Below are positions 17,235 to 30,095 of a stretch of DNA of 64,000 nt, in pieces. Origin of the DNA: Candidatus Woesearchaeota archaeon (GTDB taxonomy: Archaea; Nanobdellota; Nanobdellia; SCGC-AAA011-G17; CAYUTI01); contig CAYUTI010000002.1 of assembly GCA_964447685.1 (NCBI GenBank), positions 13,966-77,965 on the forward strand. The letters are read 5' to 3'. Made by a program: the position numbers and the translations under genes. The notes under the pieces were generated by a model that had not been told where the DNA came from, did not search any database, and saw only the letters and a program-made list of their open reading frames with translations. Positions within the stretch are counted from its first letter, which is position 1. Each line of letters begins with the position of its first letter.

Positions 17235-18896
17235 TTAAGGATAATTAATAATTAGCCACTGGCTATTAATACTTGATAAAGTAGTATTACTATCCTTCAT
17301 CGCTTTTACACTAACTCTATATTGAATACCACTCTCTAAAACTGGAGGTGTATAAATTACAGTTCCAGCTCCTTGTGTATATGGAGGAGTTCCAGAAAAA
17401 TATGAGGGGCTACTATTACTATTATGAATATAAATAGTTAACCAAACAGTATCAGTTATTCGTTGTTCTATAGTAACCTCAAAATCTAAATTACTATTAT
17501 TAAGATCTGATGGAACATTAAACTCTATTGAAGATGTTTCTGCATTATTAAGAGTAACAAATGTTGGAATATTAGGTAAATGATAAGGAAGAAGGCTACC
17601 ACTTGGTGTATGGGTTGCACTTCCAATACTTCCTGCTACTCCATTACTTCCACCATTAAATCCAGCTCCAGCTAAACCAGCAGCTACATTCATATTAAGA
17701 ACAGACATTGGAACAGAATCATAACTAAGTGTTAAAACACCGCCATCTCCACCATCTCCACCATCAGCAAAACCTGTAGAATAACTCCAACCGTTACCAT
17801 CTCCCCCATCACCACCTTTTAAATATATATTTAATGTAGTAGTAATATCTCCTGTTCTATAGAACATTGTGAAATTTGGAGCACCACCTCCTCCACCTCC
17901 ACCACCTAAATTACCAGTAGTATTATTTCCACAACCACCACCGTCACCACCTCTATTAGCTCCAACACCACCAGATCTTGGAGTAGCATCTATATCATCA
18001 GTTTCGGCACCACTACCACCACCATTATATTGACCTGCTTGACCATTTGAAGATATGTTTTGATTATAAAGATATCCTAACTGACCTATATAACCACCAC
18101 CACTTCCTGATCTACTAGTTGATAAGTTTCCAGCATTACCACCATCAGTTCCAGAAAAATCCCAGGTAATATTAGCTTCACTAAAAATTAAATTACCATT
18201 TATTGAAAACTTTGGGCTAAAATAACAATTTTGAATTGTTAGTGAAGTAAGACCATTAAATTCACAGTTACCATCAATAGTCCATAAGAAACTTTTTTCA
18301 TTAGATCCTGTAATACTTATTGTTACTCCATCATGATAAAAATTACCACCAATATGAAGTCTGGAAGTAAACCAATCATATTCACTTGGATTATTATTTG
18401 TTATTGTTAAATTTCCATTTATTTTTTGAATTATAGAGGAAGCAGGGTTAGCTCCGACTCCTTCATAATATTGAGTAGGAATCCAATTAGTATAATCAAG
18501 AATCATATCACCAATACATAGAATTTCATTAACCTCTATAGAGTTCCAATAAGAAATGTCACCTATTTTTCTTTTTGAATCTATATTACCCCAAACAATA
18601 AGTTTGTCGCAGGTTATACTTCCATTTCTTATAAATAAATCTCCTCGTACTGTGATAGTATAACCAGTTGCATCTAAACTTCCACCATCATAAATAATAA
18701 GGTTATTAAGTTCTAAATTTTCAGTATATATGCTTGAATCTTTAACAGCGAGATCAATATAACCAACTCCTGTTAATTCTCTTATCCCTTGATTAATATT
18801 CTGTAGATCGCTTCCAGATGTCCAATCACCTCTGTTACTATCTTTTATCTCTTCAAGATCTACACCCTGAAAAAGGTTTTGAAATAGCATAACCAC
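17235..18896 (-). CDS. glycine-rich beta-helix-like fibre/receptor-binding candidate, paralogue A (553 aa)
   Basis: About 60% identical to the neighbouring gene. GGGGGGGG and GDGGDGG tracts. C-terminal FN3-like tail. Confidence 0.7.
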   Translation of the reverse strand: MVMLFQNLFQGVDLEEIKDSNRGDWTSGSDLQNINQGIRELTGVGYIDLAVKDSSIYTENLELNNLIIYDGGSLDATGYTITVRGDLFIRNGSITCDKLIVWGNIDSKRKIGDISYWNSIEVNEILCIGDMILDYTNWIPTQYYEGVGANPASSIIQKINGNLTITNNNPSEYDWFTSRLHIGGNFYHDGVTISITGSNEKSFLWTIDGNCEFNGLTSLTIQNCYFSPKFSINGNLIFSEANITWDFSGTDGGNAGNLSTSRSGSGGGYIGQLGYLYNQNISSNGQAGQYNGGGSGAETDDIDATPRSGGVGANRGGDGGGCGNNTTGNLGGGGGGGGAPNFTMFYRTGDITTTLNIYLKGGDGGDGNGWSYSTGFADGGDGGDGGVLTLSYDSVPMSVLNMNVAAGLAGAGFNGGSNGVAGSIGSATHTPSGSLLPYHLPNIPTFVTLNNAETSSIEFNVPSDLNNSNLDFEVTIEQRITDTVWLTIYIHNSNSSPSYFSGTPPYTQGAGTVIYTPPVLESGIQYRVSVKAMKDSNTTLSSINSQWLIINYP

Positions 18897-18932: not shown

Positions 18933-20552
18933 TTATGGATAGATAAAATTTAACCAATTACTCCATAATCCTGATAGATTTGTATCACTATCTTTCATTG
19001 CTCTTATCTTTATTCTATAAGTTTTTCCACTTGTTAGTGCAGGAGGTGTGTAAGTTATTGTTCCGCTTCCTTGTGTATAAGGAGGAGTACCAGAAAAATT
19101 AGATGGATCACTGTTAGATGTTTGATTAATAAGTGTAAGCCATAAATTCTCAGATAATTCTTCTTCAAGAATAATTTCAAAATCTAAATCACTTCCATTA
19201 GAGTCATTAGGAGAATTAAATTCTATAGAGGATGTTTCTGCATTATCAAGAGTAACTATAGTAACTATTTCAGGAAGATGAAAAAGAAGTGGAGTTCCAC
19301 CTGATAGATGACTACTCGTACCAGAACTTCCATTAACTCCTTGAGCATATCCATAACTTCCACCACCTGCTCCACCAGTAACATTCATATTTACTGTATT
19401 AATCGGAGTAGCATTATAAGTAATTGACAGATTTCCACCATCACCACCCTCACCACCTTCAGCATTAGCAGGATCAGCAATTGCACCATTACCACCATCA
19501 AGATAAATATTTAGTGTAGTATTAATATCACCAGTATTATAAAACATAGTGAAATCAGGAGCACCGGCTCCACCACCACCACCTATTCCACCACCACCAG
19601 TTAATGATCCAGCATTACCACCCCTACCTCCCCTACCAGCACCCAAACCGCCTGTAGTTAATACTCCTATAGCACCACTACTTGCACCACTACCACCACC
19701 ATTGTATGTTCCAGATACTCCATTAGCTCCATTAGGAATTGTTATTTGTGTTTGAGCACCTATATAGCCACTACCTCTATAATCATGGACTGTTAAATCG
19801 GTTCCGCTTAAATACCAATTTACAGTAGACTCACTAAATGTTATAATTCCATTAACACTAAATTTAGGACTTAAATAGCAATCATATATTTGTAAAGTAG
19901 TAAGACCATTGAACTCACAATTACCTCCAATAGTCCATAAAAAACTGTGCTCCTGATTATAAGTAAAATTAGATATTATTGTTGTATTATCACAATAGAA
20001 ATTTTCTGTTATATCAATTCTACAACAAAACCAGTTTTGATTTGATGACTCGTCATTAGTTATTGTAAAACTACCACCTATTTTATTAATATCAGAAGAT
20101 GCAGGATTAGCACCGACTCCTTCATAATAGGTAGAATTAACCCAGTTTGTATAATCAAAGGATACGTTACCCTTGCAATGCATAGCTTTTACTGTAAAAT
20201 TATTTACAAAACTTAAATCTCCAACTTTTCTTTTAACTTCAATTTTACCTCTTACATCAAGTTGGTTACAAGTAATGCTACCATTTATAATTAATAAATC
20301 GCCTAACACTGTAATATTTTGATTACCTGAGTTTACATGACCACCATCATAGATAATCAAATTATTTACAATAAGAGGTTGACTGAATGATTGAATACTA
20401 TTAACAGCAAGATCAGTATATTCTAATCCTAATAATTTTTGTATATTATTAGCAATATTTTGTAAATCACTTCCACTTTCCCAATCACCTCTATAACTAT
20501 CTTTTATTTCATCTAGATTTAAATTAATATTAGATCCAGTAAATCCAGCCAT
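18933..20552 (-). CDS. glycine-rich beta-helix-like fibre/receptor-binding candidate, paralogue B (539 aa)
   Basis: Tandem paralogue of 17235-18896. ATG confirmed at 20552. TATAAATA lies 21 nt upstream. Confidence 0.7.
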   Translation of the reverse strand: MAGFTGSNINLNLDEIKDSYRGDWESGSDLQNIANNIQKLLGLEYTDLAVNSIQSFSQPLIVNNLIIYDGGHVNSGNQNITVLGDLLIINGSITCNQLDVRGKIEVKRKVGDLSFVNNFTVKAMHCKGNVSFDYTNWVNSTYYEGVGANPASSDINKIGGSFTITNDESSNQNWFCCRIDITENFYCDNTTIISNFTYNQEHSFLWTIGGNCEFNGLTTLQIYDCYLSPKFSVNGIITFSESTVNWYLSGTDLTVHDYRGSGYIGAQTQITIPNGANGVSGTYNGGGSGASSGAIGVLTTGGLGAGRGGRGGNAGSLTGGGGIGGGGGAGAPDFTMFYNTGDINTTLNIYLDGGNGAIADPANAEGGEGGDGGNLSITYNATPINTVNMNVTGGAGGGSYGYAQGVNGSSGTSSHLSGGTPLLFHLPEIVTIVTLDNAETSSIEFNSPNDSNGSDLDFEIILEEELSENLWLTLINQTSNSDPSNFSGTPPYTQGSGTITYTPPALTSGKTYRIKIRAMKDSDTNLSGLWSNWLNFIYP

Positions 20553-20572: not shown

Positions 20573-21139
20573 TTATTTATAAATTAAATAGCCATTCTTA
20601 TTCATCTGTAGTGCAAGTTGATATACATGCTTACAAACACAAGGAACTCTATTTGGATTAGGACTAGGCATCCAATCAGTTTTTCTTTTATAAGGTCTTG
20701 CTTTTCTTTTTGGTTGAAGAGCATCTTCTTCCTCAAGATACCATTCACTTGCAAACTGAAACCATTTACACCCACAGAAACATCTAACAGGATTCCTTGA
20801 CAGTTTGGGCTTTTGAAAATATTTATAAGTGTTATCTACTTTTATTTTTAATGGATATTGTTTATGTGGTGATTTTAATGATTTAATACCATAAAAAATA
20901 AGATTAAGTGAATATTCACCGTTACGACCTGTAGAAGTAGCTGTAACAGTAACAGTATTAACTCCAGCAGCAAATCTTATATTTTTTATAGTTATTTTTC
21001 TATCTCGATAATGTTTTCTACCCAAAACCTGCTCACCATTACTAATAAGTTGAGCAAGTGTTAAATTAGATTTAGCAATAATCTCAATTTGGTTTCGGGC
21101 AAAAACATTAGATATAGAATTAGCTGTGATGAGTTTCAT
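20573..21139 (-). CDS. protein with C-terminal SWIM-like Cys/His cluster (CFCGCKW...CVCKH), 188 aa
   Basis: A CxCx(n)CxH arrangement read in the sequence. Confidence 0.5.
   Translation of the reverse strand: MKLITANSISNVFARNQIEIIAKSNLTLAQLISNGEQVLGRKHYRDRKITIKNIRFAAGVNTVTVTATSTGRNGEYSLNLIFYGIKSLKSPHKQYPLKIKVDNTYKYFQKPKLSRNPVRCFCGCKWFQFASEWYLEEEDALQPKRKARPYKRKTDWMPSPNPNRVPCVCKHVYQLALQMNKNGYLIYK
20574..20581 (-). promoter_or_regulatory. T4 late-promoter-like TATAAATA upstream of 18933-20552
   Basis: Exact octamer on the - strand, 21 nt upstream of the ATG. Confidence 0.3.
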
Positions 21140-21175: not shown

Positions 21176-21433
21176 TTAAGCTGAGTAAGCAAGTAATTGA
21201 TTTTGATAATTAATCATTTCTGTTTGCAGAGCAGACTTACAATCAAGTATTGCTTGTGCAGGATTAGTTATACCATCAATTTGAGATATAATTTGAATAA
21301 TCTGACTAATCCCTCTATTTAAAATAGAGATTTCAGTATTAACTGCTTGAAGCTGAAGATTAAGATTTTGAAGTTCTGTTGCATCAGTAGAATTTTCAAT
21401 TGCTGTCATAAGACCTGTTCTTGTTAATGCCAT
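21176..21433 (-). CDS. small coiled-coil protein, 85 aa
   Basis: ORF track. Confidence 0.4.
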   Translation of the reverse strand: MALTRTGLMTAIENSTDATELQNLNLQLQAVNTEISILNRGISQIIQIISQIDGITNPAQAILDCKSALQTEMINYQNQLLAYSA

Positions 21434-21462: not shown

Positions 21463-21840
21463 TTACCATACAGTACACGTACCCATACAACAATATTGGG
21501 GACTACATGATATTTTAGAACAAAATGAAATTACATATCCCCAGTGATCTGAATTATAATTATTACTTCTGTCATAATTATCTGTTACATCATACCAGTA
21601 GTTGTAACTTGAATCATCACCAGTATCAACATTTACAAGTTGTCCTGTATAATCAGCACCTAATACTCCTGTATAATCAGAGACTAAATTACCTATATAA
21701 TCAGATGTATGATCAACAGTTTTATGGTTTATACATGCAATATTATCAGCTATGTAATCACAATTATCTTGCATTTCCTGTATACCATCTACTTTTACTA
21801 CACCACCTTGTTTACTTATATTTGTCCAAGTAAATGCCAT
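21463..21840 (-). CDS. Cys-rich MAFTW-family protein P1 (125 aa; 6 Cys in the last 20 residues; DYxG repeats)
   Basis: Shares the MAFTW(T/N)xIS N-terminus with P2 and P3. Adjacent to the rSAM-SPASM genes. ggagaat RBS upstream. Confidence 0.55.
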   Translation of the reverse strand: MAFTWTNISKQGGVVKVDGIQEMQDNCDYIADNIACINHKTVDHTSDYIGNLVSDYTGVLGADYTGQLVNVDTGDDSSYNYWYDVTDNYDRSNNYNSDHWGYVISFCSKISCSPQYCCMGTCTVW

Positions 21841-21855
21841 AGTTAAATTCTCCTA

Positions 21856-22302
21856 TTATACATCACCACAAGCCCCGCCCCAAAAACCAGTATTAACGCC
21901 ATTATAATTTGTAGGGCATAATGAACTATTCTCTACTATATGGTTATAGGACTGAACAACACTATAATACCATGTGTCATCCAGCATTACCGCAGCACCA
22001 CATGCATTAGTATGATGTGAAGTATAATCACCTGTATATTTTGTGGTATCATGAACAGAATCATGAGACAGTTTATCTGTTCTACAATAATTTTCATCAT
22101 CTACTCTATCTATTTCATCTTGAATATTAAATATTCTTAATGGATAACTTTTGCCTTCAAGAGTTTCCCATGTAGGTCTTGAAATTGAAATAGTATCGCA
22201 GAGCGTATTTACATTATTTCGTATTTCAGTTATTTTAGTATGTATCGAATCTGTTATCTTATCACCTATTGATACACTTATTGGATTCCAAGTAAACGCC
22301 AT
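21856..22302 (-). CDS. Cys-rich MAFTW-family protein P2 (148 aa)
   Basis: N-terminus MAFTWNPIS; paralogue of P1. Confidence 0.55.
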   Translation of the reverse strand: MAFTWNPISVSIGDKITDSIHTKITEIRNNVNTLCDTISISRPTWETLEGKSYPLRIFNIQDEIDRVDDENYCRTDKLSHDSVHDTTKYTGDYTSHHTNACGAAVMLDDTWYYSVVQSYNHIVENSSLCPTNYNGVNTGFWGGACGDV

Positions 22303-22313
22303 AACATTCTCCC

Positions 22314-22820
22314 CTATTTATCTTGGTTAGAGGGATATCCTTTTTCATTTAATAAATCTATGTAATGCTTTGAAATTTCAAAAGCAGGAGGCAACCAATT
22401 TTTAAAATTTCTAAGTGATTGAGTCAGATTTTTTAAGATATCTATAGACTCATTCATAGTTAAATGACCTTTGATAATTCTATTTATTTGAAATATAATA
22501 TCACTAATATCTCTATTTTTAATACTGTTGTCATTCCAATTATAAATCATTTCTGTATAGGCATTTACAAAATTAATAAAAGCCGGTGTTAAGGGAACCA
22601 TAAAAACTGATCTTCTAACTTCGGATAATGATGTTAAAAGTTTATTAATAAAATCATCATTAGTTTTTACATTTTTATCTTCAGTTAGATCCTTAATATT
22701 TTTTAAAATTTCATGATATGTATAATTTATAATGCTTAATATTTCTTTACCGAAAAATTCATATCTAAATTTATCATCAAGAAAAATTTCAATATGTTTT
22801 TTAGCTTCATTGAATTCCAT
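22314..22820 (-). CDS. helical hypothetical protein, 168 aa (possible accessory or recognition factor of the rSAM cassette)
   Basis: Position only; no motif. Confidence 0.45.
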   Translation of the reverse strand: MEFNEAKKHIEIFLDDKFRYEFFGKEILSIINYTYHEILKNIKDLTEDKNVKTNDDFINKLLTSLSEVRRSVFMVPLTPAFINFVNAYTEMIYNWNDNSIKNRDISDIIFQINRIIKGHLTMNESIDILKNLTQSLRNFKNWLPPAFEISKHYIDLLNEKGYPSNQDK

Positions 22821-22822
22821 AT

Positions 22823-24175
22823 CTATCTCCTATTTGCTTTTAAATATTTTTCATAAATTATTAAATTATCTTTTACGTCTTTATTTATAAGATTATAAAT
22901 ATGAGTTAATGATCCAACTTCATCCATAGAATCTATTATGGCACTTATTTTACCATGTTCCATCATACACATACTTGGTATTGGTGTAAAAATATCACCC
23001 ATAGTTTCATACTGACTTCCTAAACAACCACCTCCGCATAAATATTTAATCCCGCAATCTTGACAGTATGGGAAATTTTTTGTATCAGTAGTATAAATTG
23101 CATATAGAAGTTCAGTGTTGAGGGGATCTATACTAACTATTTGATCATACATTTCAACAAATTTAAAACTGTTAAATTGAGGATAACTAAGCCTATGGCA
23201 TGGGTTAACTGTTAAATCACTTAATCTTATTTGTATATCAGATTGAATACTACATCCTATTCCACGTCCAATAGATGAAAAACAAGAAAATATATTTATA
23301 GGATTTTTAGCTGCCCATCTTGCATAACCAATTTCATCTAAACCTGTTTTTTTCTTTGTCCATTTTACAAAGAAATTAATGAATTTTTGAAAATGTTTAA
23401 CATGATCAATAGTCCATCCATTATTTCTAACTTCTAATAAATAAATATTATCCCAAGGAAGACCATATTTATCAAACATTTCTTGGAACCATAACCAGTT
23501 ATCAATCCATTTATCAATATTATCATAATATACCATTGGATGAAAACCGCAGCCGATATCTTTAGAAAATTTGAAAATAGCATCATAGTCTCTAACATGA
23601 CCGCCTTTTTGAAACGGCCTATTTTCATCACAAAATTTTCCATCAATGCTTGCACTTAAACCTATTCTAAACCTATGCTCTAATGCTTTATTTATTAATC
23701 TGATAACTCTTTGTTTCTTTTCTTCATTTGTACAGAAATTCATATTAGTAGGAATTGAAATACGTCTATAACGAACATCGTGTTTAATAAACCATTCAAC
23801 TAATATCTCTAATACCTCAAATCCAACTTCTGAAGAAAAAATTTCACCTGAGAATAAATCAAAATTTGGAAACATGTTATATTTAGCAAACCATTCCAAA
23901 AGAAGTTTTAAATTCTTAATAACATTTCTTTTTCTATAAATAGATGTAGGATATAATCCAAGTTCTCCATGAGGTCCAATATTACTAAATCTTGAATAGT
24001 AACAGTATTTACATTTTAAATCACAAGATGGTGATATTTGAAGTTCAACACTACTGGCATTATGTCCTTGCATTAATTGTTCATGTTTACCCCAACCACT
24101 AAATACTTTAAAGAATGTTCTGTTTAAAAAACGATGTAACAAATGTGTTCGTTCTTCTTTATATAAATCTATCAT
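22823..24175 (-). CDS. radical SAM enzyme with C-terminal SPASM domain (450 aa)
   Basis: CDLKCKYC (CX3CX2C) near the N-terminus. C-terminal CQDCGIKYLCGGGC (Cx2Cx5Cx3C) plus further Cys typical of SPASM auxiliary clusters. Confidence 0.85.
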   Translation of the reverse strand: MIDLYKEERTHLLHRFLNRTFFKVFSGWGKHEQLMQGHNASSVELQISPSCDLKCKYCYYSRFSNIGPHGELGLYPTSIYRKRNVIKNLKLLLEWFAKYNMFPNFDLFSGEIFSSEVGFEVLEILVEWFIKHDVRYRRISIPTNMNFCTNEEKKQRVIRLINKALEHRFRIGLSASIDGKFCDENRPFQKGGHVRDYDAIFKFSKDIGCGFHPMVYYDNIDKWIDNWLWFQEMFDKYGLPWDNIYLLEVRNNGWTIDHVKHFQKFINFFVKWTKKKTGLDEIGYARWAAKNPINIFSCFSSIGRGIGCSIQSDIQIRLSDLTVNPCHRLSYPQFNSFKFVEMYDQIVSIDPLNTELLYAIYTTDTKNFPYCQDCGIKYLCGGGCLGSQYETMGDIFTPIPSMCMMEHGKISAIIDSMDEVGSLTHIYNLINKDVKDNLIIYEKYLKANRR

Positions 24176-24185
24176 TCTTATCTCC

Positions 24186-25571
24186 CTATCGTAACATTGT
24201 TTCTCGTATCAAACAATTTCTAAGCAACTTTTCAAAAAAACCATTACCGAAAAGTTTAAATAAAGAAGAGTGTTGAATAAAAATACTTCCACCTGTTGAG
24301 ATATTTTCAATTGGACAAGAAATACATCCTAAGATAAAATAATTTAATAACCTAGCCATTTCTTCGTTTTTATATATGCTAGATAATTGTTCTGCTTGTG
24401 CCATTAATCTTATAGTAGTAATACCATAACTTTCTTTAAATTTAGTAAAATCATTATAACCTCTCATAAGCATGAGAAGTCTATCTATATCGAGTTGATT
24501 ATTACTATCAGCACAATAATTTTTTGCTAAATTATTTATAGTAGCCTCGTCCGTTTTTATTAAATCCCCCAAACACTTCTTACTAGTTTCTACATAGTCT
24601 TTATTGGTTATGTAAAAAACTCTATGACACGGAACTACATTATGATTTTCATTAACTGAATATGTACCATCACCGCTACTACAACTAAACATTCTATGTT
24701 TAGTAGACCATTCTTTTATAATAGGTAATCTATTTGTAAGACGATGAAAATAAGCTGAATTAGGTCTTATATTATTAAATAAAAAACCGCTTAATCTTAA
24801 CTGAAAATCATAAAGTTTTGACATTGCAAAACCATCTTCTTGAGTAAAGTCAGTTGGAAGAACTATTGTCGGATCACATGAATAGGATATATTTATTTTA
24901 TTATTAACATTTGTTTCCTTGCATTTAGTGAAAAATTCATCAAAAAATCTATAATAACTTTCAATAACTGAAAAATTATAACCCATCTTCTTTATATCTT
25001 CCATAGAGGCAGTTGGTTTAAAATGCATTATAAAAGTAAAAACAGTTCCGTTTTTATTATTTACAGAATTTAAAAGTCTTATTACTTCAAGACAATTTTT
25101 AATTATTTTTTCAGTAGAACCTTCACCTCTATTCTTATCTGTTATCCATTTAGGGCCATCTATACTAACTTGTAAATCAAGCTCTATTTGTCTATCTGTA
25201 GCAGGAAAATTTTCAACAAATTTAGGTATAATGTCACTTCCAACCATATAATTAGATGAAAAACTAATTTTATTAAAATTTGGAAATAATTTTAACGCCT
25301 CTTCATAAAATTCAGGAATATGATCTAAAAGAGTTAGTGTTGGTTCAGTTCCCCAATGAGAAAAAATTGTTAAATTTTTACCAAACAACTCATAAATTTT
25401 TTTAAGAGTTGATCCATCTTTAATACCCTGTTTTATTTTCTTATGAAAATCCATAAGAAAAGTATTATCTTTAGGTATATAACAATATTTACATTTTAAA
25501 TTGCACCAACCAGCACTAAACATTTCAGATGCTTGAGGAGGTGTATTCTTACTAATACTTAAAGTTGACAT
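24186..25571 (-). CDS. radical SAM enzyme with SPASM/twitch-like C-terminal Cys motifs (461 aa)
   Basis: CNLKCKYC CX3CX2C motif; C-terminal Cys residues (CSSGDG...PCHRV; GCISCP). Confidence 0.85.
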   Translation of the reverse strand: MSTLSISKNTPPQASEMFSAGWCNLKCKYCYIPKDNTFLMDFHKKIKQGIKDGSTLKKIYELFGKNLTIFSHWGTEPTLTLLDHIPEFYEEALKLFPNFNKISFSSNYMVGSDIIPKFVENFPATDRQIELDLQVSIDGPKWITDKNRGEGSTEKIIKNCLEVIRLLNSVNNKNGTVFTFIMHFKPTASMEDIKKMGYNFSVIESYYRFFDEFFTKCKETNVNNKINISYSCDPTIVLPTDFTQEDGFAMSKLYDFQLRLSGFLFNNIRPNSAYFHRLTNRLPIIKEWSTKHRMFSCSSGDGTYSVNENHNVVPCHRVFYITNKDYVETSKKCLGDLIKTDEATINNLAKNYCADSNNQLDIDRLLMLMRGYNDFTKFKESYGITTIRLMAQAEQLSSIYKNEEMARLLNYFILGCISCPIENISTGGSIFIQHSSLFKLFGNGFFEKLLRNCLIRETMLR

Positions 25572-25596
25572 AGTATAATTCCTTATCTACTACTTT

Positions 25597-25971
25597 CTAC
25601 TTACCATCTGGTTTACATTTTCTACATTTACCTATTATATAATCGTCATATTCTAAGTTTATATTAAAATTTACTTCACTTATAAATAATTCACCACAAT
25701 CACACTCACCATAAAGATAGTATTTATTACCATCTGTGAATAGTCCTCTATTGCTATCATATTTTATATTTTCAATAAGCTCCCAACACGGAGAAAGTCT
25801 GGTATTAAATTTTATAGCATCAGGATTCTCTCTATTTATACATGTAGGAGTATCACTATTACAAAAAGTATAACAACCGCTGGAATCGTATGTTGACACT
25901 CTATTGAAATCAGACTCATTAATATCTATTTCTTTTCTGTCTACTTCTTTACTATTCCATTTAAAAGCCAT
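25597..25971 (-). CDS. Cys-rich MAFKW-family protein P3 (124 aa, 9 Cys)
   Basis: N-terminus MAFKWNSKE. Flanks the rSAM pair on the side opposite P1 and P2. Confidence 0.55.
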   Translation of the reverse strand: MAFKWNSKEVDRKEIDINESDFNRVSTYDSSGCYTFCNSDTPTCINRENPDAIKFNTRLSPCWELIENIKYDSNRGLFTDGNKYYLYGECDCGELFISEVNFNINLEYDDYIIGKCRKCKPDGK

Positions 25972-26066: not shown

Positions 26067-27173
26067 TTAACCTTTAACTTTAACCCAATGTCTACCGTTT
26101 ACTTTTATCTGTTTTTTAACTGTTCCAAACGATTCATCGAGTTCAGGTTTCTTATAAATAGCGACAATACGTTCAGGATATTTCTGAGCAAGATTTCTAC
26201 TCATTAAAATTAAATTTGCGTTATCATCATTCGTTAATATATCACCACTTTTATATGTATAACCTACAACGGGATTAACATAAGCAAGTACCCATCCAGC
26301 TACTGCTATAGGAAGAGTATTACCTGGAACATTACTTCCTAAACCGTGACCGAATGTATCACTTGCAATTCCGATTATAGATTTTTGACAATGTTCAGTA
26401 CAAAGCTTAGCTCCATATTCAGTATCGTAATAACATTTTCCTGCTATTAAATCTTCACCATCTGCTAATTTTTGGAAGTCAGCAACGTCGTTCCATACTG
26501 CTGCCCAAACTTTATAGGCTATAAATTGTTGATCTGGACTGTTATCATCTTCACTGTTAAGCATAAAATCAGGCCCTTCTCCAGTTGAAATAACTCCTAA
26601 ACTATCATCTATATAACAACGTCTGAAAGTTGGAACACCTGCACCTGGAGGACCTCCAAGACCTGTTGGGTTTATTAATTCATCAGTAGGACCTCCTCCA
26701 CCACCACTTCCATAAACAGTAGGATCAAGATGGTAAAGAACTCCCCAAGATCTTATAACTCCAGTACTGCCTCCAGTAACTCTTAACTTTATTTGCGTAC
26801 CAGTATTAGTAAATTCGTGAATTTGATTGTTAACAACAGTTTCCCAATTAATTCCATCGGCTGAAGCTTCAATAATTGTTACTCCAGAATCATCTATATC
26901 AACACTTACCATACATTGATCAATTACATCAATATAAAGTGGATCAATCAAATTTATACTTTCTATAACTTGCCCTGGTGTAAAATCAAAACTTCCAAAA
27001 CTATTTTCAGTATCATGAATCATTGTGGTGTTACCAACATTTATTTTTAACGTATCTCTAAAACTATCCCACGTTAAACTTAAATAAATAGAACCATCTA
27101 ATAAATCCTGATACGAATCAAATTCAGTATCACCGCCACCTGAACCGGATATCCTTAACTGAGAAAGTCTCAT
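26067..27173 (-). CDS. fibre/receptor-binding candidate with Gly-rich linker (GSGGGGGPT...GGPPGAG), 368 aa
   Basis: Composition and position among the fibre genes. Confidence 0.5.
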   Translation of the reverse strand: MRLSQLRISGSGGGDTEFDSYQDLLDGSIYLSLTWDSFRDTLKINVGNTTMIHDTENSFGSFDFTPGQVIESINLIDPLYIDVIDQCMVSVDIDDSGVTIIEASADGINWETVVNNQIHEFTNTGTQIKLRVTGGSTGVIRSWGVLYHLDPTVYGSGGGGGPTDELINPTGLGGPPGAGVPTFRRCYIDDSLGVISTGEGPDFMLNSEDDNSPDQQFIAYKVWAAVWNDVADFQKLADGEDLIAGKCYYDTEYGAKLCTEHCQKSIIGIASDTFGHGLGSNVPGNTLPIAVAGWVLAYVNPVVGYTYKSGDILTNDDNANLILMSRNLAQKYPERIVAIYKKPELDESFGTVKKQIKVNGRHWVKVKG

Positions 27174-27188
27174 TAGAATCCTCCAAAA

Positions 27189-27710
27189 TTATATACCTTT
27201 TATAACTATTCTGCCTGCAATACTTGTTGATAGATTACTACTCCATCTAACAGTTACAGTATCAGCATCTGTCAATGTTAATAAATACGGTTCTTTTCGT
27301 ACAGCTCCAACTCCGTTGCCCTCATAACAATCAATAAGTAAATTAAAACTACCTATATTATGTATAGCTGTCCAACTTACAGAATTTCCATAACTAGCAA
27401 CATATTTATGATTAGATAAGTTATCTCCAATAGATTCTGCTCTTCTTGCAATACTAACCGCAATTTCAGCCTCACTATCTACAACAGCACTATAACTTTC
27501 AATTAAATTTGCGATTGAATTATCTGTTTCTGCTTGAGACTCATTATGTAATGCAATTGATTTTGCTTCCGAAGCGCTTATAAAAGCAGCATCTGCTTGT
27601 TGACTCAATGATTCTGCTCGTTGAGCTATGCTGTGACCAACTGTAATGTCTCCCGGCTGTACACGCTTAGTATTACCATTGTAAAAAGCTAGAGGTGTTA
27701 CAATAGCCAT
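27189..27710 (-). CDS. fibre-related protein sharing its N-terminal domain with the 642-aa fibre (MAIVTPLAFYNGNTKRVQPGD)
   Basis: N-terminal approx. 40 aa homologous to 28167-30095; also shares the approx. 80-bp DNA repeat. Confidence 0.55.
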   Translation of the reverse strand: MAIVTPLAFYNGNTKRVQPGDITVGHSIAQRAESLSQQADAAFISASEAKSIALHNESQAETDNSIANLIESYSAVVDSEAEIAVSIARRAESIGDNLSNHKYVASYGNSVSWTAIHNIGSFNLLIDCYEGNGVGAVRKEPYLLTLTDADTVTVRWSSNLSTSIAGRIVIKGI

Positions 27711-28166: not shown

Positions 28167-30095
28167 TTATAAAGTTACAGTTCGGTCTGGATCAAAGTTG
28201 ATATCAACATTACCACCAGCAGCAGCATTTTTAGCAGATCCTATTTTCTGAGAAACATGTCCCTGAGTAGTAGGAGCATTATCAGTGATTTTACCAGCTT
28301 CAATTGTAGATATGAATAGCTGCTCACCTGCACCAATGTTAGCATTACTATCATGTAGCACATCAGTAATAAGACCATCACCTGCACGAACAGTAACAGT
28401 TGTATCACCATCATGAATAATTACACCAAATGCTGGCATTGTTGCCTCTGCGTTAGCTTTAGCAAGACCAACAGTATTAGCAATAGTTGTTTGATAAACA
28501 ACCATACCTGTTCTATCAGCCGTAGAAGCTGCCATTGTATAAATCTCACCTTCAGGAAGTACAGTACCTGCAAGAGATTCAGCACGTTGAGCAATTGACT
28601 CTGACCTATCAGCAGTACTATCCCCAACAGTTGCAATACTCTGGCTTAATCTTGCAATGCTAATTGTAACCTCTGCCTCACTATCTACTATAGTTGCATA
28701 ACTAAGTGCTAGGTCAGCAATACTATTATCAAGTGCTCCCTGTGATTCTGCTCTACGAGCAATACTGATTCCAAGTTCAGCTTCGCTATCAACTATAGTA
28801 GCATAGCTGTTTGCTCTTACTGCAATTGATTTTGCTATAACACCAAGAGAATCAGCTTCACTAGCTGCATCCTCACCAAGTCTGGCAAGAGATTGACCTC
28901 GTTCACCTATTGATGTAGCTTCACTTGCTCTATCCTCACCTATTCTTGCGATACTAACTGCGATTTCAGCTTCGCTGTCTACTACCGCTGCATAGGATTC
29001 AATTATATTTGCAATGGAATTATCTACGGCTGCCTGAGATTCATTTGCAGTCGCCATTGAACGAGCTTCGCTAACTGCTTCACTAGCATTATCTGCATAA
29101 AGGTCAGCTTCACTTCTTGCTTCAGATGCTTCATCTTCTGCTACTCTTGCAATACTAATTGCATCATCTGCTTCTGATTCTGCTAGAAGTGCAATACTTC
29201 TACCTCGTTGACCTATAGAAGCAGCCTCAGAAATATCTGAGGTCTCAACAGCTACCCTAGCAAGAGATGCTGCACGTTCTGCTATAGAAGATGCTTCAGA
29301 TGCCCTATTTTCTGCAATTTCTGCAATACTGTCAGCTACAAATGCAAGACTAGCTGCTTCACTTAGGTCAGCAGTTCTGGCAAGTGAAAGTGCAAGATGC
29401 CCCATTGATTCAGCAATATCAGAAATACTATTATCAAGTGTTCCTTGTGATTCTGCTCTACGAGCAATGCTTATTCCAAGTTCAGCTTCACTATCAACTA
29501 TTGTTGCATAAGATTCAGCCAATACAGCGATTGAACGAGCTTCACTTGATTTTTCAAGTCTGGCAAGAGATTGACCTCGTTCACCTATTGATGTAGCTTC
29601 ACTTGCTCTACCGATTGCAAGATCAGCAAGACTGTTATCAAGTACTCCCTGTGATTCTGCTTTACGAGCAATTGAAATTGCAAGTTCAGCTTCACTATCA
29701 ACTATGGTAGCTAAACTGTTTGCCCTATCAGCAATACTATTGTCAAGTAGTGCCTGAGATGCATTTAATGTAGCAATTGATCTTGCTTCACTTGCTGCAT
29801 CTGTTCCAGCAGTCTCTGCTGTTCGTGCAAGAGATTCTCCTCTTATGCCAATACTAGTTGCCTCCGAAACACGACCATTAGCAAGATCAGCAACACTATC
29901 TGCAACTACTGCAAAACTTTCTGCCCTATCTGCAATACTGTCTCCTACAATTCCATACGATTGACCTAAAACAGCAATACTTCTAGCAAGTGCTGCTTCA
30001 GATTGACCAGGAGTATTATCTCCAGGTTGAACTACTTTAAGATTTCCTTGATACAATGCCAAAGGTGTAACAGTTGCCATAGTAATTTCCTCCAA
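28167..30095 (-). CDS. Ala/Ser-rich repetitive fibre (shaft) protein, 642 aa
   Basis: Many SIA(R)RAES / DSEAELAISIAR repeats. N-domain shared with 27189-27710; C-domain shared with 30233-30640. Confidence 0.7.
   Translation of the reverse strand: MEEITMATVTPLALYQGNLKVVQPGDNTPGQSEAALARSIAVLGQSYGIVGDSIADRAESFAVVADSVADLANGRVSEATSIGIRGESLARTAETAGTDAASEARSIATLNASQALLDNSIADRANSLATIVDSEAELAISIARKAESQGVLDNSLADLAIGRASEATSIGERGQSLARLEKSSEARSIAVLAESYATIVDSEAELGISIARRAESQGTLDNSISDIAESMGHLALSLARTADLSEAASLAFVADSIAEIAENRASEASSIAERAASLARVAVETSDISEAASIGQRGRSIALLAESEADDAISIARVAEDEASEARSEADLYADNASEAVSEARSMATANESQAAVDNSIANIIESYAAVVDSEAEIAVSIARIGEDRASEATSIGERGQSLARLGEDAASEADSLGVIAKSIAVRANSYATIVDSEAELGISIARRAESQGALDNSIADLALSYATIVDSEAEVTISIARLSQSIATVGDSTADRSESIAQRAESLAGTVLPEGEIYTMAASTADRTGMVVYQTTIANTVGLAKANAEATMPAFGVIIHDGDTTVTVRAGDGLITDVLHDSNANIGAGEQLFISTIEAGKITDNAPTTQGHVSQKIGSAKNAAAGGNVDINFDPDRTVTL
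28400..29900. repeat. dispersed/tandem approx. 80-bp near-identical coding repeats (e.g. 28721-28800, 29431-29510, 29631-29710)
   Basis: Direct comparison of these sequence lines; a further copy sits at about 27440 in the neighbouring gene. Confidence 0.7.

What the first reader, a model, noticed from the sequence alone, without database searches (positions are those of the whole stretch)
21463..25971. Twin radical-SAM/SPASM enzymes flanked by three paralogous Cys-rich MAF[TK]W proteins inside the tail-fibre region: candidate phage RiPP-like or protein-crosslinking cassette
Two adjacent genes (22823-24175 and 24186-25571) each carry a CX3CX2C radical-SAM motif (CDLKCKYC; CNLKCKYC) together with C-terminal SPASM-type Cys clusters (CQDCGIKYLCGGGC). 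That is the architecture of peptide-modifying maturases such as sactisynthases, ranthipeptide synthases, PqqE and QhpD. They are bracketed on the same strand by three small paralogous proteins, P1 (125 aa), P2 (148 aa) and P3 (124 aa). These share a conserved N-terminus (MAFTWTNIS, MAFTWNPIS, MAFKWNSKE) and are Cys- and Asp/Tyr-rich; P1 ends FCSKISCSPQYCCMGTCTVW. A conserved leader-like N-terminus with a Cys-rich C-terminus, next to rSAM-SPASM enzymes, is the standard precursor-plus-maturase layout, here with unusually long precursors (comparable to QhpC). No sulfatase CxPxR motif is present, so anSME-type function is unlikely. A 168-aa helical protein (22314-22820) may act as an accessory or recognition factor. 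The cassette sits between glycine-rich fibre paralogues and the fibre/glycosyltransferase genes, so the products could be crosslinked virion or fibre components, or a secreted or injected effector. Radical-SAM genes have been noted in some low-GC T4-like phages, but as far as I know they have not been linked to cognate Cys-rich substrates.
Basis: partly seen in the sequence, partly recalled or inferred. Interest (0 to 1): 0.85.

Follow-up and report, generated by a model that had tools for sequence, protein, structure and literature searches.

The report
Radical-SAM cassette for phage fibre-like proteins
This phage carries a conserved and so far undescribed gene set in which two radical-SAM enzymes and a helical partner most likely chemically modify two small repeat proteins that look like tail-fibre parts; if confirmed, this would be a new way for viruses to build host-recognition structures.

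Summary
The seven ORFs and the quoted motifs are real, but the description needs three corrections.

- **SPASM:** only the 450-aa enzyme (rSAM-B) has a full 7-Cys SPASM domain. The 461-aa enzyme (rSAM-A) keeps three invariant auxiliary Cys, which is twitch-like.
- **Paralogy:** only P1 and P2 are demonstrable relatives. P3 shares little beyond the MAFKW start.
- **Cysteines:** the Cys-rich ends occur only in this phage and its closest relative.

The core idea, a substrate next to its maturase, is strongly supported by context. Of 54 loci with an rSAM-B homologue (mostly viral contigs, plus Parcubacteria chromosomes), 46 also carry rSAM-A. The helical protein is present in 38. In 37 there are MxFxW proteins, usually one long and one short.

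These proteins have a conserved N-terminal module and a tail with a strict 8-residue period, rich in S/T/D/N/Y/H. Some carry a lectin domain or end in a fibre-chaperone junction. The usual upstream neighbour ends in a phi29-gp12-type fibre auto-chaperone domain. A distant branch pairs 2-5 rSAM genes with CxCxCNY-octad proteins.

Best reading: radical-SAM modification, probably Cys-independent cross-linking, of fibre-like host-recognition proteins rather than small secreted peptides. The chemistry and virion location are untested. I found only a passing mention of such cassettes in the literature.

The parts
26067..27173 (-). 368-aa fibre/appendage-like protein. Its C-terminal ~180 aa are a phi29 gp12-type auto-chaperone (Peptidase_G2 IMC) domain. 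It is the usual upstream neighbour of the cassette.
   Evidence: Homologues lie directly upstream in 24 of 54 loci. A profile of the shared domain hits PDB 6QZ9, 3SUC and 3GQH (pre-neck appendage protein) at E 1.3e-7 to 3.5e-6. Pfam PF11962 matches 6 of 15 members. Larger homologues carry tail-fibre PHROGs, DUF2793 and phage tail repeats.
25597..25971 (-). P3, a 124-aa Cys-rich protein (8 Cys). It starts MAFKW, has TCINR at residues 43-47, and ends with a CxC...CxxC pattern. It is a possible degenerate third member and sits where MAFxW genes usually sit.
   Evidence: ORF. No N-module HMM match at E<=10. BLASTP against P1 is not significant. The only homologue found is in the syntenic relative L001, at 48% identity.
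24186..25571 (-). rSAM-A, a 461-aa radical-SAM enzyme with CX3CX2C at C23/C27/C30 and a reduced (twitch-like) auxiliary site at C297, C315 and C419.
   Evidence: PF04055 scores 27.4 bits, just under the gathering score of 29.5. The N-terminal half matches PapB, DynA, anSME and YhhB family models at E 1e-8 to 1e-10. Invariant residues come from 38 homologues. It lies next to rSAM-B in 46 of 54 loci.
22823..24175 (-). rSAM-B, a 450-aa radical-SAM/SPASM enzyme with CX3CX2C at C51/C55/C58 and the full 7-Cys SPASM signature.
   Evidence: TIGR04085 scores 28.1 bits (cut-off 27). Invariant Cys are listed. It has 577 homologues at E<=1e-3; the 120 best listed are mostly 40-46% identical over more than 90% of the length. 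All 30 tested hit PapB and QhpD family models, far below their cut-offs. The nearest solved relatives by profile are 5WGG/5WHY.
22314..22820 (-). H, a 168-aa all-alpha accessory protein with conserved YNWNxN and WxPPAFEISKHY motifs. It is the presumed partner of the rSAM enzymes.
   Evidence: It starts 2 nt after the rSAM-B stop. It lies directly downstream of rSAM-B in 38 of 54 loci, and a second copy follows rSAM-A in L004 and L019-L021. The family has 320 cluster representatives. The model has pLDDT 94.3. No specific structural or sequence relative was found.
21856..22302 (-). P2, a 148-aa 'long-type' MAFxW protein. It has a duplicated N-module, a junction DENYCRTD, then an octad-repeat tail ending ...GGACGDV.
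   Evidence: N-module HMM 45 bits. Family alignment. Homologues P0125-P0129 are 36-45% identical in the alignment (found). Its own period-8 signal is weak (z 2.4). Octad register.
21463..21840 (-). P1, a 125-aa 'short-type' MAFxW protein. It has a single N-module (residues 1-35), a junction ACINHK, then exactly 11 octads (e.g. SDYIGNLV SDYTGVLG ADYTGQLV). The last three octads are Cys-rich (YVISFCSK ISCSPQYC CMGTCTVW).
   Evidence: N-module HMM 52 bits. Period-8 autocorrelation z 3.3. Register shown. The Cys-rich end is conserved only in L001.

Best explanation
The region is one member of a conserved, mostly phage-borne module. Its parts are two divergent radical-SAM enzymes, a helical accessory protein and two paired substrate proteins.

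**Parts**
- rSAM-B has a full SPASM domain, which implies two auxiliary Fe-S clusters.
- rSAM-A has a reduced, single auxiliary site.
- H is a helical protein translationally coupled to the enzymes.
- P2 (long type) and P1 (short type) are the paired substrates.

**Proposed mechanism (inferred)**
1. The N-terminal MxFxW...E-[IL]-R-x-N-x-D module acts as the recognition element, equivalent to a leader. It is bound by H and/or by the conserved N-terminal extension of the enzymes.
2. The enzymes then install radical-mediated modifications in the strictly 8-residue-periodic tail, consensus [T/S/G]-[H/D/Y]-[N/D/Y]-[S/T]-[T/S/G]-[V/Y/H]-[D/Y/N]-[S/G/A].
3. These are most likely Cys-independent side-chain cross-links involving Tyr/His and Asn/Asp/Ser/Thr.
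4. In this phage lineage the Cys-rich last octads of P1 may additionally receive thioether links.
5. The products are not cleaved, exported peptides. They are fibre-like (probably oligomeric beta-helical) proteins made with the tail-fibre genes, acting in or on the host-recognition apparatus.

**Shown:** gene content, conservation of the gene set, motifs, periodicity and domain assignments.
**Inferred:** that P1/P2 are the substrates, the role of H, the reaction type and virion association.
For: - **Enzyme class.** Both enzymes have invariant CX3CX2C. rSAM-B has an invariant 7-Cys SPASM signature. Its closest families are all peptide/protein cross-linkers: PapB, QhpD, nif11-peptide maturase and SCIFF maturase. 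The closest solved structures are 5WGG/5WHY.
- **Linkage.** Of 54 loci with rSAM-B, 46 have rSAM-A, 38 have H and 37 have MAFxW proteins, usually one long and one short. This holds although the rSAM-B homologues are only 27-67% identical to the window protein. It also holds in Parcubacteria chromosomes with no phage genes nearby.
- **H coupling.** H starts 2 nt after rSAM-B in the window and overlaps it in many loci. Four loci have one H after each enzyme.
- **Substrate design.** The family has a conserved N-module and a junction D-x-N-x-C-x-x-[HD]. A junction-like pattern is found in 44 of 66 members. Tails have lag-8 z=22 and lag-16 z=29, with lags 2, 6 and 10 at z about -12 to -14.
- **Tail composition.** S 13%, D 11%, T 10%, N 10%, Y 9.7%, H 5.3% and C 1.6%.
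- **Fibre character.**
  - Laminin_G_3 domains lie inside two long-type members.
  - Two members end in SDxRLKKxIxYI, a fibre-chaperone junction.
  - One tail hits the T4 gp5 beta-helix model.
  - The upstream neighbour has a phi29 gp12 auto-chaperone domain.
- **No RiPP export machinery.** No protease or exporter family was detected in the window proteins scanned, and none is listed in the L001 gene table.
- **Parallel branch.** In 25 distant loci, 2-5 rSAM genes sit with CxCxCNY-octad proteins that carry a weakly homologous module.
Against: - There is no experimental or proteomic evidence. The substrate relationship rests on gene neighbourhood only.
- The P2 monomer model is low-confidence (pLDDT 45.7), so the beta-helix idea is unverified.
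- The gp5C hit is a single member below Pfam's cut-off (25.5 vs 30.9 bits). None of 36 family members has a meaningful Pfam hit.
- Some tails have almost no aromatic residues (minimum 2%), so aromatic cross-linking cannot be universal.
- H has no resemblance to known leader-binding (PqqD/RRE) domains.
- No cultured phage carries the module, so virion association cannot be checked in existing proteomes.
- Some of the 54 loci are near-duplicates of each other (e.g. L002/L003, L040/L043, L045/L047).
Confidence: 0.55

Rival explanations
1. Classical RiPP pathway. The N-module is a leader that is cut off, and the modified tail, or fragments of it, is released at lysis as a diffusible bioactive or signalling peptide.
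For: - The layout of a leader-like conserved N-terminus, a variable repeat core and SPASM enzymes is the standard RiPP logic.
- Short members exist, at 61-99 aa.
- A conserved junction motif could mark a processing site.
Against: - No protease or exporter family was detected in the window proteins scanned, and none is listed in the L001 gene table.
- Members reach 399-594 aa and include lectin domains.
- The strict long-range 8-residue periodicity without register slips and the fibre-chaperone junction ends are structural-protein features.
- The genes sit in the late fibre operon.
Confidence: 0.15
2. The enzymes are sactipeptide/ranthipeptide-type thioether synthases acting on the Cys-rich C-termini of P1, P2 and P3.
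For: - The best-scoring families for rSAM-B are thioether formers: PapB, SCIFF maturase and QhpD.
- P1 ends FCSKISCSPQYCCMGTCTVW, and this end is conserved in L001.
- The distant branch has extremely Cys-rich octads next to 2-5 rSAM genes.
Against: - Across the family, tails are 1.6% Cys, and 23 of 52 have none beyond the junction, yet the same two enzymes are conserved.
- All family-model scores are far below the curated cut-offs.
- P3 is not a family member by any test.
- This could still be a lineage-specific extra reaction on top of the family-wide one.
Confidence: 0.15
3. The rSAM pair and H act on something other than the MAFxW proteins, for example the adjacent fibre protein, a glycan or a cofactor. 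On this reading the MAFxW proteins are ordinary small fibre or whisker proteins that simply share the host-recognition gene cluster.
For: - Host-recognition clusters of T4-like phages are mosaics of unrelated genes (PMC7029224).
- The 368-aa fibre-type neighbour is also frequently conserved (24 of 54 loci).
- Glycosyltransferases are nearby.
Against: - The association with MAFxW proteins persists in Parcubacteria chromosomes that lack the fibre neighbour and any phage genes.
- It also persists across rearranged gene orders.
- The enzymes resemble peptide/protein-modifying families, not sugar or cofactor families.
Confidence: 0.12

Closest known systems
QhpD-QhpC (quinohemoprotein amine dehydrogenase maturation)
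   Same: A SPASM radical-SAM enzyme cross-links a whole ~110-aa protein subunit rather than a short peptide. All 30 rSAM-B homologues hit the QhpD model (best E 1.6e-15).
   Different: Scores are far below the curated cut-off of 453 bits (28.7 bits for the window protein). QhpD makes Cys thioethers, whereas this family's substrates are mostly Cys-poor. QhpD has no second rSAM, no H partner and no phage or fibre context.
Triceptide / three-residue cyclophane-forming enzymes (XyeB, GrrM/OscB, YhhB families)
   Same: These are SPASM-type rSAM enzymes without an RRE. They act on precursors with many repeats of an aromatic-X-X motif. Here Y-x-S, H-x-S and H-x-T are enriched (z 7-9). There are weak hits to YhhB, GrrM and XyeB models.
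   Different: No curated cut-off is met. The enrichment could simply reflect the 4/8-residue period. Some tails lack aromatics. The substrates are larger and fibre-like. Two enzymes plus H are involved.
His-Xaa-Ser system (HxsA-D; described from my knowledge of the NCBIfam/TIGRFAM family definitions)
   Same: It has a paired radical-SAM enzyme architecture, a small accessory protein and a repeat-rich His/Ser substrate.
   Different: 12 of 30 rSAM-B homologues hit HxsB only weakly (best E 4.6e-9), and the window protein scores 14 bits against a cut-off of 370. There was no HxsC hit for rSAM-A and no HxsD hit for H. The repeat unit and the genomic context differ.
Thioether-forming SPASM maturases of the SCIFF and PapB (ranthipeptide) families; PDB 5WGG/5WHY
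   Same: These are the best sequence and profile matches for rSAM-B, and they share the 7-Cys SPASM architecture.
   Different: From my knowledge, these enzymes carry an N-terminal RRE and need Cys donors. Here the CX3CX2C starts at residue 51 (rSAM-B) or 23 (rSAM-A), and no PqqD/RRE hit was found. The substrates are largely Cys-free.
Trimeric beta-helical phage fibres and their chaperones (T4 gp5 C-terminal needle, phi29 gp12 appendage with auto-chaperone, endosialidase-type C-terminal chaperone)
   Same: The repeat unit is 8 residues. One member hits the gp5C model. Two members end in SDxRLKKxI, an endosialidase-type junction. The neighbouring protein carries the phi29 gp12 auto-chaperone domain.
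   Different: The tails are far more polar than the gp5C VxGxxxxx repeat. Trimer formation is untested. As far as I know, no known fibre is made with dedicated radical-SAM enzymes.
Radical-SAM genes previously noted in T4-like phages (Campylobacter CP220/CPt10 group; pelagimyophage host-recognition clusters)
   Same: These are low-GC T4-like myophages with rSAM genes. [quoted passage not shown]
   Different: The Campylobacter phage enzymes are about 21% identical to a distant family member (L006 rSAM-B), and the window rSAM-B itself finds no GenBank phage. In CP220 the matched SPASM-like gene (gp023) is not part of a twin-rSAM cassette, although a QueE-like rSAM gene lies about 2.6 kb upstream. 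The pelagimyophage paper gives no analysis of substrates or function.

Membership tests
Radical SAM superfamily | CX3CX2C motif that binds the SAM-cleaving [4Fe-4S] cluster | tested here: met
   C51/C55/C58 are invariant in 30 rSAM-B homologues. C23/C27/C30 are invariant in 38 rSAM-A homologues.
Radical SAM superfamily | Pfam PF04055 at or above its gathering score (29.5 bits) | tested here: not met
   rSAM-A scores 27.4 bits and rSAM-B 18.2 bits. Both are divergent but clearly related, given many NCBIfam rSAM hits.
SPASM domain (TIGR04085) | The domain model at or above its cut-off, plus the 7-Cys signature CX9-15GX4C...CX2CX5CX3C...C | tested here: met
   This applies to rSAM-B only: 28.1 bits against a cut-off of 27. 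C308, C326, C371, C374, C380, C384 and C403 are invariant.
SPASM domain (TIGR04085) | The same features in the second enzyme (rSAM-A) | tested here: not met
   No TIGR04085 hit. Only C297, C315 and C419 are invariant outside the core. This reads as a twitch-like single auxiliary site.
Sactipeptide / ranthipeptide / SCIFF maturases | The equivalog model at or above its curated cut-off | tested here: not met
   PapB 40.7 vs 340 bits, SCIFF 33.6 vs 425 bits, StsB 18.1 vs 625 bits. The same picture holds for 30 homologues.
Sactipeptide / ranthipeptide / SCIFF maturases | Cys donors conserved in the substrate core | tested here: not met
   Family tails are 1.6% Cys, and 23 of 52 have none beyond the junction. 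Cys-rich ends occur only in the window and L001.
Sactipeptide / ranthipeptide / SCIFF maturases | An RRE (PqqD-like) leader-binding domain, fused or separate | tested here: not met
   No PqqD-type Pfam hit in either enzyme or in H. The N-terminal extensions are only 50 and 22 residues. H is an all-alpha bundle, not a winged helix.
QhpD (TIGR03906) | The equivalog model at or above its cut-off (453 bits) | tested here: not met
   28.7 bits for rSAM-B and 16.1 bits for rSAM-A.
His-Xaa-Ser system | HxsB, HxsC and HxsD models at or above their cut-offs | tested here: not met
   HxsB scores 14.3 bits against 370 for rSAM-B. There is no HxsC hit for rSAM-A and no HxsD hit for H.
Triceptide cyclophane synthases (XyeB, GrrM/OscB, YhhB) | The family models at or above their cut-offs | tested here: not met
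   For rSAM-A: YhhB 33.9 vs 445 bits, GrrM 28.6 vs 310 bits, XyeB 12.7 vs 450 bits.
Triceptide cyclophane synthases (XyeB, GrrM/OscB, YhhB) | A repeated aromatic-X-X motif in the substrate | tested here: inconclusive
   YxS, HxS and HxT are enriched (z 7-9), but this is confounded by the 4/8-residue period. Some tails have about 2% aromatics.
Anaerobic sulfatase-maturing enzyme | The equivalog model at or above its cut-off, and a C/S-x-P-x-R substrate motif | tested here: not met
   TIGR03942 scores 36.7 vs 349 bits. The motif occurs in 1 of 66 family members (SYPLR in P2), which is chance.
Classical RiPP gene cluster | A leader protease and/or an exporter encoded with the maturase | tested here: not met
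   No peptidase or transporter family was detected in the window proteins scanned on either side of the cassette. None appears in the L001 gene table. This was not surveyed in all loci.
Triple-stranded beta-helix fibre (gp5C-like) | An 8-residue sequence repeat | tested here: met
   Lag 8 z=22 and lag 16 z=29 over 48 tails. P1 alone gives lag 8 z=3.3.
Triple-stranded beta-helix fibre (gp5C-like) | Pfam PF22178 at or above its gathering score; a trimeric beta-helical fold | tested here: not met
   Only P0130 hits, at 25.5 vs 30.9 bits. None of 36 members hit. The monomer model is uninformative. The trimer fold is not testable with these tools.

The most novel reading that the evidence does not exclude
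Many large phages, and some Parcubacteria, use dedicated radical-SAM enzymes to covalently modify their own fibre-like host-recognition proteins. Examples are cross-linked Tyr/His/Asn/Asp octad fibres in this branch and Cys-octad fibres in a sister branch with 2-5 rSAM genes. As far as I know, this would be the first radical-enzyme post-translational modification of virion structural proteins. It would also define a large, unexplored family of enzyme-substrate pairs with a new recognition module and a new helical partner protein.
Probability: 0.3. Interest if true: 0.9.

Novelty: new variant of a known kind. Interest (0 to 1): 0.72.

Why it matters
Radical-SAM/SPASM maturases are known for small antibiotic-like peptides and for a few cellular proteins. 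I know of no case where they build virus particles.

This module is abundant and entirely uncharacterised. rSAM-B has 577 homologues and the partner protein has 320 cluster representatives.

If the module modifies fibre-like proteins, three things follow:
- It would add a new layer of chemistry to phage host recognition and fibre stability.
- It would explain the 'radical SAM cassettes' noted in the host-recognition clusters of marine T4-like phages.
- It would supply new enzyme-substrate pairs, including a new recognition module and repeat scaffolds, for peptide and protein engineering.

Its presence in Parcubacteria chromosomes also raises the question of exchange between these bacteria and phages.

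Tried and rejected
- **GenBank phages.** blastn and tblastn with the region and with rSAM-B found nothing. A long-type family member also found nothing. Only about 21% matches to Campylobacter phage rSAM genes appeared, using a distant member as query, and CP220 shows no comparable cassette.
- **Single-sequence scans of IMG/VR.** These failed for both enzymes. An alignment query was needed.
- **Word-indexed protein searches.** The search with H found only itself, so one search was wasted. The profile search with the MAFxW family was capped by low-complexity candidates and returned only 20 hits.
- **Structure prediction.** The P2 model was too poor for a fold search.
- **Fold searches for H.** They gave only generic helical matches. 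The AFDB library was unavailable.
- **H as an RRE/PqqD-like domain.** Rejected, because H is all-alpha.
- **anSME function.** Rejected on both motif and scores.
- **Link to the pelagimyophage 'curli operon'.** Rejected. It is a different locus with CsgF/CsgG genes.
- **P3 as a family member.** Not supported by HMM or BLAST.
- **Promoter and terminator scans.** Nothing above background.

Full report
**1. What is in the window**

The window is a low-GC (about 30%) T4-superfamily-like myophage. It has a tail sheath, baseplate hub and wedge, a glycosyltransferase and a helicase. The sheath is about 50% identical to those of Vibrio and Rhizobium T4-like phages.

Almost all long ORFs are on the minus strand. 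The cassette reads, in transcription order:

| Gene | Coordinates | Size |
|---|---|---|
| fibre-like protein (f368) | 27173-26067 | 368 aa |
| P3 | 25971-25597 | 124 aa |
| rSAM-A | 25571-24186 | 461 aa |
| rSAM-B | 24175-22823 | 450 aa |
| H | 22820-22314 | 168 aa |
| P2 | 22302-21856 | 148 aa |
| P1 | 21840-21463 | 125 aa |

Downstream come an 85-aa and a 188-aa protein, then two Gly-rich paralogues. Gaps between the cassette genes are 2-29 nt. No terminator-like site was found, and promoter-like sites were no more frequent than in shuffles. The cassette therefore appears to lie in one co-directional operon.

**2. The enzymes**

Both enzymes have CX3CX2C.

rSAM-B passes the SPASM domain model (TIGR04085, 28.1 bits against a cut-off of 27). 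In an alignment of 30 homologues, the three core Cys and seven SPASM Cys are invariant. The SPASM Cys are C308, C326, C371-x2-C374-x5-C380-x3-C384 and C403.

rSAM-A has no SPASM hit. In 38 homologues only C297, C315 and C419 are invariant beyond the core, so its auxiliary site is reduced and twitch-like.

The two enzymes are barely similar to each other. They do share a C-x17-C-H-R element.

All 30 rSAM-B homologues hit the PapB and QhpD models. Hits to the nif11-peptide maturase come from 25, to the SCIFF maturase from 23, and to HxsB from 12. Every score is an order of magnitude below the curated cut-offs. The nearest solved structures by profile are 5WGG/5WHY.

So this is a distinct family inside the peptide/protein-modifying SPASM radiation. 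No RRE/PqqD domain was found. The N-terminal extensions of 50 and 22 residues are too short to hold one.

**3. The cassette is conserved and mostly phage-borne**

rSAM-B has 577 homologues at E<=1e-3. The 120 best listed are mostly 40-46% identical over more than 90% of the length, and most carry no name.

Loci were fetched from viral contigs and genomes and annotated with my own ORF calls and HMMs. Of the 54 loci with an rSAM-B homologue:
- 46 have rSAM-A adjacent.
- 38 have H directly downstream.
- 37 have MxFxW proteins, usually two.
- 24 have a homologue of the 368-aa protein just upstream.

The commonest order is fibre - MAFxW - MAFxW - rSAM-A - rSAM-B - H. Four loci (L004, L019-L021) have a second H after rSAM-A.

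Some loci are near-duplicates, and several are cut by contig ends.

The set also occurs in Parcubacteria and Colwellbacteria contigs. In the Parcubacteria contig it sits among ordinary cellular genes (TatAC, POR, RecG) with no phage genes nearby. More distant pairs (27-34% identity) occur in Clostridia and Peptococcaceae prophages and in other viral contigs. In the four of these where the pair is adjacent, an analogous protein lies directly upstream, with a module like '...SDIN..F..L..LR...' and a low-complexity S/N/G/aromatic tail.

No GenBank phage carries the family.

**4. The MAFxW proteins**

The family alignment shows two paired subtypes.
- **Short type (P1-like):** MxFxW..G..I...[EI][IL]R.N.D[YW][IL].DN.AC[IV][TN][HD].
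- **Long type (P2-like):** the module is duplicated and ends ...ELR.A.DY.DD.N[YV]C[RS].[HD].

P1 and P2 match the N-module HMM at 52 and 45 bits. P3 does not match at E<=10.

Tail composition is S 13%, D 11%, T 10%, N 10%, Y 9.7%, G 8%, H 5.3% and C 1.6%. Of 52 tails, 23 have no Cys beyond the junction.

The periodicity is exceptional:

| Lag | z |
|---|---|
| 4 | 14.6 |
| 8 | 22 |
| 12 | 18.8 |
| 16 | 29 |
| 2, 6, 10 | -12 to -14 |

The phase-resolved octad is [T/S/G]-[H/D/Y]-[N/D/Y]-[S/T]-[T/S/G]-[V/Y/H]-[D/Y/N]-[S/G/A].

P1 is exactly 11 octads from its junction to its C-terminus. The Cys-rich part occupies the last three. That Cys-rich end exists only here and in the 67%-identical relative L001.

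**5. Evidence that these are fibre-like proteins**

- Two long-type members carry a Laminin_G_3 lectin domain (E 8e-15 and 3e-16). In L042 it lies before an internal N-module copy.
- Two members end in SD[IR]RLKK[DN]IxYI. This resembles the start of the endosialidase-type intramolecular chaperone junction.
- One tail hits the T4 gp5 C-terminal beta-helix model, but below its cut-off.
- The domain shared by the upstream neighbours is the phi29 gp12 pre-neck-appendage auto-chaperone, Peptidase_G2. It hits PDB 6QZ9, 3SUC and 3GQH at E 1e-7 to 4e-6, and PF11962 matches 6 of 15 members.
- Larger neighbours carry tail-fibre PHROGs, DUF2793 and phage tail repeats.
- No protease or exporter family was detected in the window proteins scanned, and none is listed in the L001 gene table.

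Against this, the P2 monomer model is poor: pLDDT 45.7, with only a helix at residues 18-38 moderately supported. No Pfam family covers the proteins.

**6. The helical partner H**

H has 320 cluster representatives, almost all stand-alone proteins of 150-200 aa. Its conserved motifs are YNWNxN and WxPPAFEISKHY.

H is translationally coupled to rSAM-B. I infer that it is an enzyme partner or substrate adaptor. It is not a PqqD-type RRE.

**7. A sister branch**

The most distant loci have rSAMs only 21-25% identical to rSAM-B and come from contigs of up to about 250 kb. They hold 2-5 rSAM genes in a row. In L067 and L071 a stand-alone ~174-aa auto-chaperone-type protein lies directly before the first rSAM gene, and a small uncharacterised ORF follows it.

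They also hold usually paired proteins with an internal W...I...HhNELR.AI module and tails of Cys-rich octads (CNYACTCQ repeated 6-10 times). Many end in SDxRLK..I, or continue into a longer C-terminal region. There are 32 such proteins in 25 loci.

The N-module HMM hits three of them weakly, at 14-17 domain bits. H is not detectable there.

The design is the same and the tail chemistry differs. This supports the general reading that radical-SAM enzymes are dedicated to octad-repeat fibre-like proteins. It also leaves room for thioether chemistry where Cys is present, possibly including P1's last octads.

**8. Literature**

Seven full-text searches found no analysis of this module; an eighth covered known cyclophane and His-Xaa-Ser rSAM systems.

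[quoted passage not shown] PMC12801897 merely annotates a 'radical SAM superfamily maturase' in a cyanophage.

**9. Verdict**

The maturase-plus-substrate logic holds and generalises far beyond this phage. The Cys/thioether emphasis, the 'both SPASM' claim and the 'three paralogues' claim do not hold.

The most likely function is radical-SAM modification of paired fibre-like repeat proteins in the host-recognition module. This modification is probably Cys-independent cross-linking. The chemistry, the oligomeric fold and virion association remain untested.

Noticed in passing
L067:7472-13917, L071:7451-12961, L073:6919-11488 (and 22 further loci among L066-L097): A sister branch in large viral contigs. 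It has 2-5 rSAM/SPASM genes in a row and, usually, paired proteins whose tails are Cys-rich octads (CNYACTCQ repeated 6-10 times). In L067 and L071 a stand-alone phi29-gp12-type auto-chaperone protein comes first. Many of the octad proteins end in the SDxRLKxxI fibre-chaperone junction.
   Followed up: partly
L002:4448-9954 (Parcubacteria MAG contig, 157 kb): The cassette sits in a cellular chromosome next to tatC/tatA, with three MAFxW proteins of 91, 306 and 266 aa. Pyruvate:ferredoxin oxidoreductase genes follow it. No phage genes occur within 17 kb.
   Followed up: partly
L042:4355-6139 and L033:4986-6185: These long-type MAFxW proteins (594 and 399 aa) contain a Laminin_G_3 (concanavalin-A-like lectin) domain. 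In L042 it lies before an internal N-module copy at residues 460-492.
   Followed up: partly
window 27189-27710 and 28167-30095: A 173-aa and a 642-aa protein share an N-terminus (MA[IT]VTPLA[FL]Y[NQ]GN.K.VQPGD). Both are built of degenerate 'SIARRAES...' Ala/Ser/Glu-rich repeats. The region has a locally raised GC of 0.41. They are probably coiled-coil fibre shafts with a common attachment end.
   Followed up: no
window 17235-18896 and 18933-20552: Two Gly-rich paralogues (553 and 539 aa) have conserved N-terminal halves and poly-Gly stretches. The antisense ORFs at 17869-18033 and 19549-19755 are poly-Pro artefacts of the GGN codons.
   Followed up: no
window 20573-21139: A 188-aa protein has a CFCGC...PCVCKH pattern resembling a SWIM-type zinc finger. 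No homologue was detected in the syntenic relative L001, unlike the adjacent 85-aa coiled-coil-like protein (21176-21433), which is 61% identical there.
   Followed up: no
L004, L019, L020, L021: These loci use an alternative gene order: rSAM-A - H - long - short - rSAM-B - H. There are two H paralogues, one after each enzyme, which suggests each enzyme has its own partner.
   Followed up: partly
L052, L056, L058, L006 (27-31% identity branch): Here the twin rSAMs are preceded by proteins of a different family with the same design: an N-terminal '..SDIN.lF.rLEALR..' module and tails such as FGFDGSNFSFSQNSSRFGFSFGFNSS or NCSGNCSSNYSGN. A shorter protein of about 105-130 aa takes the place of H. 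In L009 (34% identity) the two rSAM genes are separated by an opposite-strand ORF.
   Followed up: partly
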